From positions 12,589 to 76,588 of IMG/VR virus record IMGVR_UViG_3300032259_000003: 64,000 nucleotides of DNA; one strand, written 5' to 3'. Both the position numbers and the translations under genes were made by a program. How positions within the stretch are numbered: position 1 is the stretch's first letter; each line of letters starts with the position of its first letter. Source of the stretch: a virus. Taxonomy: Duplodnaviria > Caudoviricetes. The notes under the pieces are model-generated. The model made no database searches. It was not told the DNA's origin and saw only the letters and a program-made list of their open reading frames with translations. This document shows, in pieces, positions 13,232 through 62,696 of this stretch.

Positions 13232-13482
13232 TAGTCGATCCCTTCCAGCGCGTCGCGCCCTAATGTATAATCGAGTTCATGTAAATAGAGTAGTGCATCT
13301 TGCCGCGCGTCGTCATCTTCAATTTGCCGTATAACCTCTGCCATAAAATCAATATGTTCTATTAGGTCATCCGATGTCATCTGTACGCAATTAATACACA
13401 ATCGCAAATCATGGTAGGCGTATAAATAGTTACCCTGCTCGATCTCGTGGTTGGCTTGTTGGATGTATCCGTCACGTGTCAT
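13231..13482 (-). CDS. Hypothetical protein
   Basis: 83 aa; homologue at 50688-50939. Confidence 0.7.
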   Translation of the reverse strand: MTRDGYIQQANHEIEQGNYLYAYHDLRLCINCVQMTSDDLIEHIDFMAEVIRQIEDDDARQDALLYLHELDYTLGRDALEGID

Positions 13483-14000
13483 GACCCCTTATCCTCTCCG
13501 TATAAAAACGTATTCAGCAAATCAATACTGCCTAACCCGACTTTGACATACAGGCTATCGGCGCTCTTTTTTGCAATCACTCTGGCGCGAAAGTCGGCAT
13601 ATGTCCCCCAAAAACAGCCCGTTTTAACCATCAGCATATCAGCATGTTCAACAGCATAGACCAGATCATCACGCGACGACATGCCAGCGATATAGAACAA
13701 ATGGATACCTTTCGCCCCATAGAAATTCGCACGTGTCAGATTCGCACGTGTCAGATCCGCGCCGGTCAAATGCGCGTGTGCCATATTTGCGTCTACCAGA
13801 TACGCGTGTGCCAGGTCCGCTTTTGACAGATCCGCACGTATCAGCTTCGCGCCTCTCAGATACGCCCGTGTCAGATTCGCACGTGTCAGATCCGCGCCTG
13901 TGAGATTCGCGCCTTTGAGATCCGCACGATAGAGATTCGCGCCTGAAAGATCCGCGCTCGGCTTAATATCGTATTCTTTACCATTAATTTCCTTTATCAT
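13479..14000 (-). CDS. Pentapeptide-repeat protein
   Basis: A(D/N)LxxA repeats plus a C-terminal domain shared with 24285-24941. Confidence 0.9.
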   Translation of the reverse strand: MIKEINGKEYDIKPSADLSGANLYRADLKGANLTGADLTRANLTRAYLRGAKLIRADLSKADLAHAYLVDANMAHAHLTGADLTRANLTRANFYGAKGIHLFYIAGMSSRDDLVYAVEHADMLMVKTGCFWGTYADFRARVIAKKSADSLYVKVGLGSIDLLNTFLYGEDKGS

Positions 14001-14277: not shown

Positions 14278-14622
14278 CTAACCCAAGTCTATAACCTTCA
14301 ACGCCTTTAAATTCACGCCGTTACACGTTCCCCTCGGATGGACTAAGTAGGCGTAACGCTCTCCGCCATAGTGGACTATGCGCGTTATCGTTGCCCCGTA
14401 ATATGCACATTGCCTAATTACGGTTAACCCAATAAACGGGTGCGCTTTTGGCGCAGGTAATAAACCAGCGATAACCGGCGCGGTCAATAGGGGGGGGTAT
14501 GTTTTTGGCGGCGTGGGTGCGATATTACACGGGCGCGCTTGCGGTGGCGTGACATATGTTAGCGCATCCGCAAAACTTAGAAATTTTGTGCGTGGTTGGG
14601 TGTTACTGTAACTTAAATTCAT
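14278..14622 (-). CDS. Hypothetical protein
   Basis: 114 aa; homologue at 52491-52835. Confidence 0.7.
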   Translation of the reverse strand: MNLSYSNTQPRTKFLSFADALTYVTPPQARPCNIAPTPPKTYPPLLTAPVIAGLLPAPKAHPFIGLTVIRQCAYYGATITRIVHYGGERYAYLVHPRGTCNGVNLKALKVIDLG

Positions 14623-24285: not shown

Positions 24286-24941
24286 TGAAACAAAAAATTA
24301 ATGGTAAGACATACGATATTAAGCCGAACGCGGATCTATCAGGTGCGGATCTATCAGGTGCGTATCTATCAGGCGCGATTCTCACACGCGCGGATCTATC
24401 AGGCGCGGATCTCACAGGCGCGATTCTCACACGCGCGGATCTCTACCTGGCGAATCTATCAGGCGCGAATCTGGAACGTGCGTATCTATCAGGCGCGAAT
24501 CTCTATCGTGCGGATCTCACAGGCGCGGATCTCACAGGCGCGAATCTGGAACGTGCGTATCTATCAGGCGCGAATCTCACACGCGCGGATCTCACAGGCG
24601 CGGATCTCACAGGCGCGGATCTCACAGGCGCGAATCTCACAGGCGCGAATCTATCAGGCGCGGATCTCACAGGCGCGAATCTCTATCGTGCGAATTTCTA
24701 TGGTGCGAAAGGCATCCATTTGTTCTATATCGCGGGCATGTCTTCACGTAGTGATTACGTCTTTGCAGTAGAGCATACCGATATGCTGATGATTAAGGCC
24801 GGTTGCTTTTGGGGTACATACGCGGAGTTTCGCGCTAAAGTGATTGCAGAAAAAGGCGCGGATAGCATGTATGTTAGAGTCGGGTTAGTCGGTTTGGATG
24901 CATTGAACACATTCTTGTATGGGGAGGATAAGACATCATGA
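24285..24941 (+). CDS. Pentapeptide-repeat protein
   Basis: About 24 A(D/N/Y)L(S/T)GA units plus the shared C-terminal domain. Confidence 0.92.
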
Positions 24942-51410: not shown

Positions 51411-52136
51411 CTATTCCGCTAAGGCTTTTAGCATTGCTTCGGCTATTGGCAGAATACACTGTGGAACAACGGCGTTTCCTAGTGCCTCGACCCGATCACG
51501 GCGGTATTCTTTCCTGTCCGTAACGCGCGACGGTTCAAATTCGTGTTGTGGCACATTGCGCGGCGCAGGGAATTGATGCTCTGATAGGTTAACGCTGACG
51601 TCGGGTATCTCTATATCTGTGTAACCTATAGGGTATCCCATAAGTAGTTCACACCAATCGGGGTTAAGCGGGCGCGGCTTGGGGTGCGAATCTTCTATAA
51701 CTAGGCCGCGGAGGTGATTCCACTTCATATCATGATTGTGACTCTTTGACCCTAACGGTCCCGTTCCTTTGCGGTCTGATGTATCAAGCGTAGGCCAGTT
51801 TCGGCTCTCCATACTTACATATTGCGTCAAGCTCATCCCGAACCGTGTCCCTGTGGTTTTAGATTGGCGATACAATGCGCCGGTTTCGGTTTCCCCAAAC
51901 AATTCAGGGTCTACGGTTACGATACCTAAAGCGTCACTTGCTGTTGGATTGGGATAAAACGCAGAACCATCTCTTCCGTTGGTGTGGCGCACCAACGTCT
52001 GAAGCTCGGATATGTTGCCATTGTGCATCATACCCGCTTTTGATAACTTGCCTGAGTAGCTCTCTAAACTCATCGCCATCATTGAGGCTTGCAAAATGCG
52101 GTACATTTTCGAGAAATACCATTTTTGGCTTAACAT
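51411..52136 (-). CDS. C5 cytosine methyltransferase beta polypeptide (variable region plus motifs IX and X)
   Basis: LNPDWCELLMGYP (IX) and RVEALGNAVVPQ (X). Overlaps the alpha ORF in another frame; the exact start is uncertain. Confidence 0.8.
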   Translation of the reverse strand: MLSQKWYFSKMYRILQASMMAMSLESYSGKLSKAGMMHNGNISELQTLVRHTNGRDGSAFYPNPTASDALGIVTVDPELFGETETGALYRQSKTTGTRFGMSLTQYVSMESRNWPTLDTSDRKGTGPLGSKSHNHDMKWNHLRGLVIEDSHPKPRPLNPDWCELLMGYPIGYTDIEIPDVSVNLSEHQFPAPRNVPQHEFEPSRVTDRKEYRRDRVEALGNAVVPQCILPIAEAMLKALAE

Positions 52137-52494
52137 CTGTAATTATCCTCATCATCTCTGGAATTAAATAACGTTCATCATCTTGACCGGCTTTTTTACC
52201 TGCTATAGAAAAGGGCTGACATGGTTACGGGAAGCCTGCAACAATAACATCGGTTGTATTATCGTCTTGGCTTCCGTCGTCACCTCCTTTGTAGTAACGG
52301 CTTACCGCGTTGTCAATCATTTCTTTGTCAACATCATAAATATCTCTAAATTTAACCGTGTTTGGGAACCGCAAATTCAACACAGATTGACAATATTCGT
52401 TTATCTCAACCTGCCAAACAATATCAAACCCGGCCTCTTGAAACGCTAGATCAATTCCGCCAATACCTGTAAATAGTGAGCCTACTGTACTCAT
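51934..52494 (-). CDS. C5 cytosine methyltransferase alpha polypeptide (motifs I-VIII), interrupted by one in-frame TAA in motif IV (recoded or pseudogene)
   Basis: SLFTGIGG (I), GFP*PCQPFS (IV), FLENV (VI), APHQRKRWF (VIII), all in one frame. Confidence 0.85.
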
Positions 52495-52835
52495 GATAAA
52501 TCAACCACCTTCAACGCCTTTAAATTCACGCCGTTACACGTTCCCCTCGGATGGACTAAGTAGGCGTAACGATCTCCGCCATAGTCCACTATCCGCGTTA
52601 TCGTTGCGCCGTAATATGCACATTGCTTAATTACGGTTAACCCAATAAACGGGTGCGCTTTTGGCGCAGGTAATAAACCAGCGATAACCGGCGCGGTCAA
52701 TAGGGGGGGGTATGTTTTTGACGGCGTGGGTGCGATATTACACGGCCGCGCTTGTGGTGGCGTGACATATGTTAGCGCCTCTGCAAAACTTAGAAATTTT
52801 GTGCGTGGTTGGATGTTGCTGTAACTTAAATTCAT
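52491..52835 (-). CDS. Hypothetical protein
   Basis: Homologue of 14278-14622. Confidence 0.7.
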   Translation of the reverse strand: MNLSYSNIQPRTKFLSFAEALTYVTPPQARPCNIAPTPSKTYPPLLTAPVIAGLLPAPKAHPFIGLTVIKQCAYYGATITRIVDYGGDRYAYLVHPRGTCNGVNLKALKVVDLS

Positions 52836-52868: not shown

Positions 52869-53849
52869 TTAGAATAACGGCAATTGGTTGGCTTCCCAGT
52901 CGGTAGCAATGCGCTTCTCTGCCATCGCTATATATTCAGGGTTAACCTCACATCCGATATAATGGCGGTTTAGGCGTTTAGCCACTAGCCCAACCGTTCC
53001 GGCTCCCATGAATGGGTCAATAACTACATCGCCGCGTTTACTTCCGGCCTTGATGCAAATCTCGGGTAATTCAGGGGGGAACGTTGCAAAGTGTGCCTCA
53101 CTATATGGCCTGGTGGTTATTGTCCATACTGAACGTTTGTTACGTCCATTGGGATTCGCAAACCGTTTTCCCATGCGTTCTGTATCAACGGGAGGGATTC
53201 CAACCCCAATGTTATTAGGGTGCTTATGTGTTAATCCATATTCGACGCGCTTTAGAGAAACGGGTTTATGCGGCTCCCTTACCGCATCAAAATCATAATA
53301 ATACTGTGCTGACTTCGACAATAAGAATATGTATTCATGCGCTTTGGTCGGCCTATCGGTTACGCTCTCCGGCATGGGGTTGGGTTTATTCCAAACATTG
53401 TCCATGCGTACCCACCAGCCTGCATCTTGGAGCGCAATGGCGACACGGTGCGGAACTAGCATAAGGTCTTTGGGTTTTAGGGTTGTATTGAACTGTTTGG
53501 GGGGTTTAAACATACGTTCAATTCTCGTCCCCGTTTCAAGTGAATTTGTGCCACCGGTTTGGGTTGACCCTGCAAACGAATCCCCCAAATTGAGCCAGAA
53601 TACACCATCAGGTTTTAATACCCGTCGCAACTCCTCGAATATCATAACTAGCTTATCAATGTATTCCTGTAAGGTTGGCTCAAGACCAAGCTGTCCGTTT
53701 ACGCCATAATCACGAAGTCCATAATAAGGAGGGCTTGTAACGCAACATTGCGCGTAATCCGACGGTAATGCCTTCAAGAAGTTTAGCGCATCCATATTAT
53801 AAATTTTGTCGTGTAACGTTTTTGTGTGGTGCATTGGTAGTAAGTTCAT
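52869..53849 (-). CDS. DNA N4-cytosine/N6-adenine methyltransferase (beta class)
   Basis: VTSPPY and DPFMGAGT. Homologue of 14656-15678 with two replaced internal segments. Confidence 0.92.
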   Translation of the reverse strand: MNLLPMHHTKTLHDKIYNMDALNFLKALPSDYAQCCVTSPPYYGLRDYGVNGQLGLEPTLQEYIDKLVMIFEELRRVLKPDGVFWLNLGDSFAGSTQTGGTNSLETGTRIERMFKPPKQFNTTLKPKDLMLVPHRVAIALQDAGWWVRMDNVWNKPNPMPESVTDRPTKAHEYIFLLSKSAQYYYDFDAVREPHKPVSLKRVEYGLTHKHPNNIGVGIPPVDTERMGKRFANPNGRNKRSVWTITTRPYSEAHFATFPPELPEICIKAGSKRGDVVIDPFMGAGTVGLVAKRLNRHYIGCEVNPEYIAMAEKRIATDWEANQLPLF

Positions 53850-62040: not shown

Positions 62041-62696
62041 TGAAACAAAAAATTAATGGTAAGACATACGATATTAAGCCGAACGCGGATCTATCAGGTG
62101 CGGATCTATCAGGTGCGTATCTATCAGGCGCGATTCTCACACGCGCGGATCTATCAGGCGCGGATCTCACAGGCGCGATTCTCACACGCGCGGATCTCTA
62201 CCTGGCGAATCTATCAGGCGCGAATCTGGAACGTGCGTATCTATCAGGCGCGAATCTCTATCGTGCGGATCTCACAGGCGCGGATCTCACAGGCGCGAAT
62301 CTGGAACGTGCGTATCTATCAGGCGCGAATCTCACACGCGCGGATCTCACAGGCGCGGATCTCACAGGCGCGGATCTCACAGGCGCGAATCTCACAGGCG
62401 CGAATCTATCAGGCGCGGATCTCACAGGCGCGAATCTCTATCGTGCGAATTTCTATGGTGCGAAAGGCATCCATTTGTTCTATATCGCGGGCATGTCTTC
62501 ACGTAGTGATTACGTCTTTGCAGTAGAGCATACCGATATGCTGATGATTAAGGCCGGTTGCTTTTGGGGTACATACGCGGAGTTTCGCGCTAAAGTGATT
62601 GCAGAAAAAGGCGCGGATAGCATGTATGTTAGAGTCGGGTTAGTCGGTTTGGATGCATTGAACACATTCTTGTATGGGGAGGATAAGACATCATGA
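62040..62696 (+). CDS. Pentapeptide-repeat protein
   Basis: Identical to 24285-24941. Confidence 0.92.

What the first reader, a model, noticed from the sequence alone, without database searches (positions are those of the whole stretch)
52219..52236. Stop codon inside the C5 methyltransferase active-site motif, with stop-hop geometry (CCG-TAA-CCA)
Seen: the minus strand reads GGC TTC CCG TAA CCA TGT CAG CCC TTT TCT = G F P * P C Q P F S, and the frame stays open through motifs VI-VIII. Relative to the canonical GFPCQ this is a 6-nt insertion that places a stop between two proline codons, immediately before the catalytic Cys. Established: bypassing needs matched take-off and landing codons flanking a stop (T4 gene 60, short stop-hops), and one tRNAPro can read both CCA and CCG. 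A hop would restore GFPCQ exactly, whereas readthrough would add two residues to the catalytic loop. A perfect SD-like AAAGGAGGTGA lies about 50 nt upstream within the CDS (52280-52290). Inference: this is either programmed low-level expression of a methylase or a recent inactivating insertion/excision footprint. The precise fit favours testing the first idea but does not prove it.
Basis: partly seen in the sequence, partly recalled or inferred. Interest (0 to 1): 0.78.

Follow-up and report, generated by a model that had tools for sequence, protein, structure and literature searches.

The report
Conserved stop-hop insert in phage methylase
A phage DNA-methylase gene carries a stop codon plus one proline codon wedged into its catalytic motif, and the same six-base insert is kept in at least 42 distinct related genes that otherwise stay under selection, so ribosomes most likely hop over it, a decoding trick not yet reported for any natural gene.

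Summary
The minus strand at 52236..52219 reads GGC TTC CCG TAA CCA TGT (G F P stop P C). Independent contigs of the probable source run reproduce it at depth 34, with no other allele.

It is not a private lesion. An unbiased pattern (G F P, any codon, P C Q P F S) found 63 sites in methylase genes in three public collections, and the extra codon was a stop in all of them (TGA 28, TAA 20, TAG 15). The codon after the stop is only CCN, CTR or TCA, the set that can pair with a tRNA-Pro anticodon if G-U pairs are allowed. The take-off codon avoids CCC. The frame after the stop is under purifying selection. Simple nonsense and one-codon controls gave no methylase hits.

About half of the relatives carry an HNH nuclease domain just upstream, as in T4 gene 60 with MobA. 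The window has none.

It is not decay.

The best reading is a six-base hop by peptidyl-tRNA-Pro that restores GFPCQ. No RNA or protein data exist. Earlier notes of this scan report the same insert on other DNA.

The parts
52228..52494 (-). Alpha ORF, segment 1: ATG 52494-52492 through motifs I-III to G-F-P of motif IV. The take-off Pro codon CCG is at 52230-52228.
   Evidence: ORF list. Pfam PF00145 E 2.4e-13. Alignment A1. pN/pS 0.27 against the syntenic relative L199.
52222..52227 (-). The six inserted bases TAACCA: stop codon TAA (52227-52225) plus the landing codon CCA (52224-52222).
   Evidence: Sequence. Absent from 12 homologues. The same kind of insert, a stop plus a YYN codon, occurs in 42 distinct genes.
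51934..52221 (-). Alpha ORF, segment 2, same frame: catalytic Cys TGT 52221-52219, QPFS, motif VI (ENV) and motif VIII (QRKRWF). It ends at TGA 51936-51934, nine codons after motif VIII.
   Evidence: Translation. Pfam PF00145 E 4.3e-28. pN/pS 0.47 in this frame against 1.28 and 0.73 in the other frames, measured against L199.
51411..52136 (-). Beta ORF in the +1 frame (241 codons from ATG 52136-52134): target-recognition region (YPNPTASD...), motif IX (LNPDWCELLMGYPIGYT) and motif X (LGNAVVPQ). It overlaps the end of alpha by about 200 nt.
   Evidence: ORF list. Colinear with motifs IX to X of the single-frame relative P0118, E 2e-16. 54% identical over 126 aa to the nested +1-frame ORF of L199. 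pN/pS is 0.39 for the recognition region and motif IX and 0.17 for motif X.
52146..52150 (-). GAGGA, 9 nt upstream of the first ATG of the beta ORF: a possible ribosome-binding site for beta.
   Evidence: Read from the sequence. L199 has GAGGTG about 7 nt before the ATG at the same position. Only two sequences were compared, so this is an inference.
52280..52290 (-). It lies in an insertion of about 20 residues private to this gene, between motifs III and IV. It is probably not part of the mechanism.
   Evidence: Sequence. The stretch is absent from all aligned homologues. It lies 53 nt from the stop.
14281..14293 (-). Empty site in the other phage copy on the same record: 13 nt stand where the whole methylase gene stands in this copy.
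   Evidence: Self-comparison. A contig joint skipping 51413..52507 with these 13 letters has depth 18 in run X1 and 2.8 in run X2.

Best explanation
The gene at 51411-52494 (minus strand) encodes a two-polypeptide cytosine-5 DNA methylase. The alpha ORF carries motifs I-VIII. An overlapping +1-frame beta ORF carries the recognition region and motifs IX and X. The alpha ORF holds a six-base insert, a stop codon plus a proline codon, exactly between the Pro and Cys codons of catalytic motif IV. The proposed mechanism has four steps. A ribosome with peptidyl-tRNA-Pro on CCG meets TAA in its A site. Release after proline, with C as the next base, is slow. The tRNA lets go of CCG and re-pairs with CCA six bases on. 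Decoding resumes at TGT, so the product reads GFPCQ as in every normal enzyme. Ribosomes that fail to hop release a harmless 89-residue fragment. In relatives the insert usually travels with an HNH nuclease domain placed about 20-30 codons upstream. By analogy with T4 gene 60 and MobA, the insert probably arose, or is kept, because it breaks the nuclease's target in the conserved motif IV DNA without changing the protein. Shown: the insert is real, recurrent, constrained at codon level and followed by selected coding sequence. Inferred: the hop itself, its efficiency, the link to nuclease immunity and the separate translation of beta.
For: (1) In G-F-P-X-P-C-Q-P-F-S sites inside methylase genes, X is a stop in 63 of 63 cases (TGA 28, TAA 20, TAG 15). 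The 5 hits with a sense codon lie outside methylase genes.
(2) With the next codon left free, 25 viral loci show only CCN, CTA/CTG or TCA, that is YYN, and never a purine at position 1 or 2. YYN is the set that pairs with the two G's of any tRNA-Pro anticodon if G-U pairs are allowed. Pro, Leu and Ser share no chemistry.
(3) Take-off codons are CCG 23, CCT 16, CCA 8 and CCC 1, against CCC 45 of 110 in genes without the insert (Fisher 8e-8). Within the insert-bearing genes CCC is 13 of 48 at the next Pro codon (p 8e-4).
(4) dN/dS of the 84-89 codons after the insert is 0.07-0.7 in the methylase frame, mostly below 0.5. This holds for close pairs inside clades where all members carry the insert: L052/L046 0.11, L006/L068 0.07, L033/L012 0.08.
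(5) There are 42 distinct genes (under 85% core identity). Inside clusters the insert changes (TGA-CCA against TAG-CTG, CCA against CTA, CCA against CCC) yet remains a stop plus YYN.
(6) Controls: a one-codon stop insertion gave 0 loci, and nonsense at the neighbouring Gln codon gave 2 loci, both outside methylase genes.
(7) The same stop codon ends other long ORFs in 40 of 41 loci, and TAA ends 66 of 106 ORFs of this phage, which has no tRNA gene. A changed genetic code is therefore excluded.
(8) An HNH-type insert lies within 3 kb in 42 of 77 insert-bearing loci and in 0 of 114 controls.
(9) Window copy: no other lesion. It shares every column that is invariant in alignment A1, which includes the window's own row. 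It is under selection in the expected frame in all four segments against L199.
(10) Literature: proline before a stop hampers release (PMC3985003). Synthetic stop-hops work in E. coli, but 'no occurrences are known' in nature (PMC5009743). The gene 60 bypass insert blocks MobA nicking (bioRxiv 10.1101/2022.08.31.505936).
Against: There is no RNA, peptide or methylation evidence for any member. The window's gene is the only insert-bearing member of its own clade, where the best insert-bearing relative is 46% identical. Persistence of the insert under selection therefore cannot be shown for this lineage, and a recent gain followed by silence is possible. The methylase is dispensable, because the co-occurring variant lacks it. 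No HNH gene is present in this phage. No stimulatory RNA structure was found at the site (fold z-score 0.0). Landing on CTR or TCA requires a G-U pair at codon position 1 or 2, which is tolerated in P-site re-pairing in other systems but is untested here. The dN/dS pairs are not independent, and some insert gains may be recent, so part of the signal could predate the insert. The codon-bias tests ignore phylogeny.
Confidence: 0.6

Rival explanations
1. Stop-codon readthrough. A near-cognate tRNA reads the stop at low frequency, giving an enzyme with two extra residues (GFP-X-P-CQ) in the catalytic loop.
For: Any of the three stops is used. Proline before the stop and C after it make a leaky context (PMC3985003 for proline; the effect of the following base is from memory). 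The review PMC5009743 notes that readthrough and a stop-hop differ only by two residues in the product.
Against: Readthrough places no demand on the following codon, yet that codon is limited to YYN and encodes unrelated residues (Pro, Leu, Ser). It does not predict avoidance of CCC at the preceding codon. If a loop longer by two residues were active, sense codons at the stop position should be found, and 0 of 63 are. No member of the family with an uninterrupted motif has a longer loop.
Confidence: 0.12
2. The window's copy is a dead or dying gene. The six bases act as a plain terminator, for example a nuclease-immunity scar acquired recently, and nothing downstream is made.
For: The methylase is absent from the co-occurring variant. 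The window's gene sits alone among relatives without the insert. No HNH gene is present and no expression data exist. Some insert-bearing relatives do show truncations.
Against: There is no second lesion. The frame change after motif VIII is shared with the family, and the +1 frame is intact over 241 codons while the zero frame there has at least 8 stops. That pattern is expected for a gene under selection and not for a decaying one. A random inactivating hit would very rarely have exactly this form and place. Ordinary nonsense lesions in this motif were not found in viral contigs.
Confidence: 0.18
3. Termination and restart. The stop ends a first polypeptide (motifs I-IV) and a second one starting at PCQ is made by re-initiation, so that three pieces assemble.
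For: The family already splits the enzyme into pieces coded in different frames. Fragments of C5 methylases can complement each other (PMC3404938).
Against: There is no in-frame start codon after the stop. The next codons are YYN then TGY. Only the few CTG cases could start, and the ATG/GTG formed by CCR-TG is out of frame and opens only 8 codons in the window. A cut between the Pro and the catalytic Cys has no precedent.
Confidence: 0.05
4. Sequencing or assembly artefact, or a phage with a changed genetic code.
For: The record is a chimeric join of two variants. No raw reads could be laid, only contigs.
Against: A second assembler gives the same 1153-nt contig at depth 34. About 105 other ORFs are intact. 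The same insert occurs in dozens of unrelated projects with different stops. TAA is the phage's main terminator and the phage has no tRNA gene.
Confidence: 0.02

Closest known systems
Synthetic 'stop-hops' in E. coli (Weiss, Dunn, Atkins and Gesteland 1987, as described in the review PMC5009743)
   Same: Matched codons flank a stop, so nine bases specify one amino acid. The peptidyl-tRNA leaves the first codon and re-pairs with the second, and a slow-to-decode A-site codon is what allows it.
   Different: Those were artificial constructs with efficiencies of about one per cent (figure from memory). The review states that no natural occurrence is known. Here the arrangement is natural, conserved in at least 42 distinct genes, uses proline codons, and tolerates landing codons with a G-U pair.
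Phage T4 gene 60 50-nt translational bypass with the MobA HNH homing endonuclease (bioRxiv 10.1101/2022.08.31.505936; PMC5009743)
   Same: A non-coding insert lies in a conserved phage gene. A stop follows the take-off codon, and take-off and landing codons are read by one tRNA. It is associated with an HNH nuclease whose target the insert disrupts. Some lineages keep the bypass after losing the nuclease, as the window does.
   Different: The gap is 6 nt, not 50. No take-off stem-loop, nascent-peptide signal or internal SD is evident. The host gene is a methylase, not a topoisomerase. The HNH is an in-frame domain inside the gene rather than a separate ORF. There is no sequence homology.
M.AquI and M.EcoHK31I, two-polypeptide C5 methylases (PMC3404938, PMC2836561)
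   Same: In M.AquI the alpha chain has motifs I-VIII and the beta chain IX-X, which is the window's layout. In M.EcoHK31I the beta chain (motif IX) is coded inside the alpha gene in another frame, which is the layout of most relatives (59 of 92 controls and 23 of 41 insert-bearing genes).
   Different: Neither published enzyme has a stop inside motif IV. Separate translation of beta is not shown here. Homology to those two enzymes was not tested.

Membership tests
Cytosine-5 DNA methyltransferase (Pfam PF00145) | Motifs I (FxGxGG), IV (PCQ with the catalytic Cys), VI (ENV) and VIII (QxRxR) | tested here: met
   PF00145 matches at E 2.4e-13 and 4.3e-28 on the two alpha segments. The motifs align with 12 homologues. 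Motif IV is interrupted by the six bases.
Cytosine-5 DNA methyltransferase (Pfam PF00145) | Motifs IX and X after a variable recognition region | tested here: met
   They are present, but in the +1 frame (ORF 52136..51411). They align to P0118 motifs IX-X at E 2e-16. Pfam itself did not reach E 0.01 on this piece.
Two-polypeptide C5 methylase (M.AquI type) | Alpha with motifs I-VIII and beta with IX-X, on overlapping ORFs in different frames | tested here: met
   ORF layout. The frame of selection switches to +1 after motif VIII throughout the family.
Two-polypeptide C5 methylase (M.AquI type) | The two chains are made separately and associate to give activity | not testable with these tools
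   There is only a possible RBS (GAGGA 52150-52146) before ATG 52136. This needs expression and an activity assay.
Programmed translational bypassing / stop-hop | Take-off and landing codons readable by one tRNA, with a stop directly after the take-off codon | tested here: met
   CCG-TAA-CCA in the window. In 64 unique genes the take-off codon is CCN and the landing codon is YYN.
Programmed translational bypassing / stop-hop | The interrupted gene is kept under purifying selection on both sides in lineages that carry the gap | tested here: met
   Met for the family. Inconclusive for the window's own lineage, because its nearest relative L199 lacks the insert.
Programmed translational bypassing / stop-hop | A protein product that lacks the residues of the gap | not testable with these tools
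   No proteome is available and no RNA run holds the sequence.
Programmed translational bypassing / stop-hop | Dedicated stimulators as in gene 60 (take-off stem-loop, nascent peptide, SD in the gap) | tested here: not met
The fold of the 91-nt site has z-score 0.0. SD-like scores upstream do not differ from controls. These features define gene 60, not short stop-hops.
Homing-endonuclease cassette with bypass (MobA type) | An HNH nuclease gene or domain next to the bypass insert | tested here: not met
   There is no PF01844 match, and the relatives' HNH insert finds nothing better than E 0.31 by tblastn in the 76.6-kb record. It is met in 42 of 77 related loci and in 0 of 114 controls.
Pseudogene | Further disabling lesions and relaxed selection | tested here: not met
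   There is no other stop or frameshift within the frames used. The gene shares every column invariant in alignment A1, which includes its own row. pN/pS is 0.17-0.47 per segment against L199.

The most novel reading that the evidence does not exclude
Phage cytosine methylases use a natural, programmed six-base ribosome hop by peptidyl-tRNA-Pro over a stop codon placed inside their catalytic motif. The insert evolved repeatedly (at least 10 gains or losses on the tree) as a protein-silent way to destroy the DNA target of an HNH homing nuclease that rides in the same gene. It can outlive the nuclease, as in this window. This would be the first natural stop-hop and a second, independent example of the gene 60/MobA principle.
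Probability: 0.5. Interest if true: 0.9.

Novelty: new variant of a known kind. Interest (0 to 1): 0.8.

Why it matters
The 2016 review of recoding states that in-frame stop-hopping has been shown only with synthetic constructs and that no natural case is known (PMC5009743). Outside yeast mitochondria, the T4 gene 60 cassette is still the only well-studied case of programmed bypassing. A six-base hop conserved in dozens of phage genes would give a simple natural system for studying how a peptidyl-tRNA leaves and re-finds its codon. It would show that homing nucleases can drive the evolution of recoding more than once. It would also mean that gene callers wrongly split or discard many active methylase genes. 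In addition, this methylase family is commonly coded in two frames, which annotation misses too.

Tried and rejected
(1) My first reading was a pseudogene with two lesions, the stop and a frameshift after motif VIII. I withdrew it because the +1 frame after motif VIII is the selected frame in the whole family, including genes without the insert.
(2) Close relatives were sought by megablast against GenBank phages, by tblastn of the helicase-primase and by the search for related loci with the C-terminal piece. Nothing was found, so the phage is unlike known isolates.
(3) Suppressor tRNA or a changed genetic code: no tRNA gene, and TAA is the main stop.
(4) RNA evidence: no RNA holder is listed for this stretch.
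(5) Complex prediction with alpha segment 1, alpha segment 2 and beta gave no verdict. The score was 0.86, but a control with chain 2 replaced scored 0.85. This is not evidence either way.
(6) RNA structure at the site is no better than shuffles.
(7) A C-terminal motif regex used as a measure of decay was too crude for the diverse controls.
(8) Dual coding of the motif IV-VIII core in the +1 frame: dN/dS there is intermediate (0.3-1.2). This is not decisive.
(9) Conversion-tract test: the residues flanking the insert in the window are those of its own clade (AGFP..., DDERYLIPEM). No imported patch is visible.
(10) Literature searches for a published natural stop-hop or an interrupted methylase motif found none in the held library.

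Full report
OBSERVATION. On the minus strand the window reads GGC TTC CCG TAA CCA TGT CAG CCC TTT TCT at 52236..52207. This is G F P stop P C Q P F S. Pfam's C5 DNA-methylase model matches both sides of the stop, at E 2.4e-13 for the 89-residue piece and 4.3e-28 for the next 96 residues. Twelve aligned homologues all read GF-PCQ with no extra codons, so six bases have been inserted between the Pro and the catalytic Cys codon. About 105 other ORFs of the 76.6-kb record are intact and tightly packed. TAA is the commonest terminator (66 of 106), and there is no tRNA gene. The insert is therefore real, and it is a stop codon in this phage.

THE INSERT IS A FAMILY FEATURE. I scanned public collections with a pattern that leaves the extra codon free: GGN TTY CCN NNN CCN TGY CAR CCN TTY TC. 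Viral contigs gave 11 loci, genomes 5 and metagenomes 51. Counting the window, 63 of the 68 sites lie in methylase genes, and in all 63 the free codon is a stop (TGA 28, TAA 20, TAG 15). The five sites with a sense codon sit in short open stretches with no methylase motifs and are chance matches. Most of the genes are open for 200-500 codons after the stop.

A second scan fixed a stop (or TGG) and left the following codon free. It gave 25 viral loci. That codon is CCN in 11, CTA or CTG in 11 and TCA in 3, and TGG never appears in place of the stop. Two controls came back empty. A one-codon stop insertion gave no locus. A nonsense codon at the neighbouring Gln position gave two loci, and neither is a methylase gene. 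In 40 of 41 loci of 5 kb or more, the stop type used in the insert also ends other long ORFs, so a changed genetic code is not the answer. Clustering gives 42 distinct genes at under 85% core identity. Within clusters the insert itself varies (TGA-CCA against TAG-CTG, CCA against CTA, CCA against CCC) but always stays a stop plus a YYN codon.

TRANSLATION CONTINUES PAST THE STOP. For the 84-89 codons after the insert (motif IV to VIII), dN/dS in the methylase frame is 0.07-0.7, mostly below 0.5. This includes close pairs inside clades whose members all carry the insert: L052/L046 0.11, L006/L068 0.07, L033/L012 0.08 and L011/L013 0.11. The pairs are not independent, and some gains may be recent. 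Even so, the signal appears in every clade examined.

WHY A HOP RATHER THAN READTHROUGH.
- The landing codons CCN, CTR and TCA have pyrimidines at positions 1 and 2. This is exactly the set that can pair with the two G's of a tRNA-Pro anticodon if G-U pairs are allowed. Pro, Leu and Ser have nothing in common as residues next to a catalytic cysteine (my inference).
- The take-off codon is biased. The counts are CCG 23, CCT 16, CCA 8 and CCC 1, against CCC 45 of 110 in genes without the insert (Fisher 8e-8). Inside the insert-bearing genes, CCC is 13 of 48 at the next Pro codon (p 8e-4). From memory, CCC is read mainly by the GGG isoacceptor, which could not re-pair with the CCA or CCG landing codons that predominate.
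- Proline before a stop hampers release (PMC3985003).
- No methylase gene has a sense codon at the stop position, although a tolerated longer loop should allow one.
- A hop yields GFPCQ exactly.

The review PMC5009743 describes such stop-hops in synthetic constructs and says that no natural occurrence is known. My searches of the held library found no later report.

LINK TO A HOMING NUCLEASE. Many insert-bearing genes carry an in-frame HTH plus HNH domain between motif III and motif IV. A profile built from that domain finds a match within 3 kb in 42 of 77 insert-bearing loci and in 0 of 114 controls. On a tree of the conserved core, the insert needs at least 17 changes of state, 10 of them forced by well-supported branches. 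This resembles T4 gene 60, where the 50-nt bypass insert disrupts the MobA target and some phages keep the bypass after losing the nuclease (bioRxiv 10.1101/2022.08.31.505936). The window's phage has no HNH gene. Nuclease immunity is an inference and was not tested.

THE 'FRAMESHIFT' AFTER MOTIF VIII. The zero frame ends nine codons after QRKRWFCV (TGA 51936-51934). The recognition region, motif IX and motif X lie in the +1 frame (ORF 52136..51411). I first took this for a second lesion. It is not.
- Across the family, dN/dS after motif VIII is 0.1-0.5 in most pairs in the +1 frame. It is near or above 1 in the other two frames.
- Motif IX lies in the +1 frame with motif X in the zero frame in 23 of 41 insert-bearing genes and 59 of 92 controls.
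- This is the layout of M.EcoHK31I, whose beta chain is coded inside the alpha gene in another frame (PMC2836561).
- The window has the rarer layout of M.AquI, with alpha carrying motifs I-VIII and beta IX-X (PMC3404938).
- Its nearest syntenic relative, L199, has the methylase after a homologous 114-residue gene. L199 has no insert but carries the same recognition region and motif IX in its +1 frame: 54% identity over 126 residues, with pN/pS 0.39 there and above 1.1 in the other frames.
- In the window the zero frame after motif VIII has at least eight stops, while the +1 frame is intact over 241 codons. That is what selection on a beta chain predicts and what decay does not.
- P0118 shows that single-frame relatives also exist, and the window's beta aligns with its motifs IX-X at E 2e-16.

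THE WINDOW'S OWN COPY. Its core is 54-62% identical to proteins without the insert and at most 46% identical to other insert-bearing genes. In the tree it sits in a supported clade of 42 genes without the insert plus itself. Those 42 come from a protein database that cannot hold interrupted genes, so this picture is biased. Even so, the DNA scans found no closer insert-bearing relative. The residues flanking the insert are those of its own clade, so no imported patch is visible. The insert was therefore probably gained on this lineage. How long it has been kept cannot be measured.

The methylase is an optional gene. The record is a head-to-tail join of two related genomes of about 37.7 kb, and the other copy has 13 nt in place of the gene. 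Contigs show both forms in the sample, at depth 34 with the gene and 18 without. Neither looks like part of a mechanism.

VERDICT. Rough odds for this copy are: hop 0.6, silent or dying gene 0.18, readthrough 0.12, restart 0.05, artefact 0.02. Earlier notes of this scan describe the same insert on other DNA. I re-derived the main points independently, including the stop-only rule, the landing codons, the selection after the insert and the HNH link. New here are the take-off codon bias, the empty controls and the two-frame architecture that explains the apparent frameshift.

Noticed in passing
whole record; window 1-64000 (G000 12589-76588): The 76.6-kb IMG/VR record is a head-to-tail join of two related phage genomes of about 37.7 kb, 90-99% identical in blocks. 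It is probably two co-occurring strains joined by the assembler, or a tandem pair. The estimate of 100% completeness hides this.
   Followed up: partly
loci L004-L198; window 51411-52136: Most phage methylases with the GFPCQPFS motif, with or without the insert, code the recognition region and motif IX in the +1 frame nested inside the main ORF, like M.EcoHK31I. The annotated single ORF reads an Arg/Lys-rich stretch there, with dN/dS near or above 1 in most pairs. Database proteins such as P0003 therefore probably misrepresent the middle of the enzyme.
   Followed up: partly
L010 against L036; L056 against L049: Near-identical gene pairs differ in whether motif X lies in the zero frame or the +1 frame. 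This is a recent indel between motifs IX and X that moves motif X from the alpha chain to the beta chain.
   Followed up: no
insert-bearing loci, from about 31 codons before the insert to the end of the recognition region: The +1 frame is open across the insert and across the whole motif IV-VIII core in many genes (230-300 codons). Its dN/dS there is intermediate (0.3-1.2). Whether the beta chain starts upstream of the insert, or this is a by-product of the conserved main frame, is unresolved. In the window the +1 frame opens only 26 codons after the insert.
   Followed up: partly
L004, L005, L009, L010, L014, L017, L072, L082 and others: An HTH plus HNH domain of about 130 residues is inserted in frame between motif III and motif IV of the methylase. 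The window has a private insertion of about 20 residues at the same spot.
   Followed up: partly
window 24329-24709, 62084-62464 and, inverted, 13475-13990: Arrays of short, imperfect tandem repeats (steps of about 15 and 45 nt, 75-88% alike) appear once per genome copy, with a related array in inverted orientation. They were seen only in the self-comparison.
   Followed up: no
window 52869-53849 (-): The neighbouring N6/N4 DNA methylase (326 aa, PF01555 E 6e-54) is intact, and its SPPY catalytic motif is uninterrupted. Earlier scan notes report similar stop inserts in the DPPY motif of such enzymes elsewhere.
   Followed up: partly
L078, after motif VIII: The zero frame has five stops over about 60 codons and then reopens with a typical C-terminal motif. 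This may be another frame arrangement or an inserted stretch.
   Followed up: no
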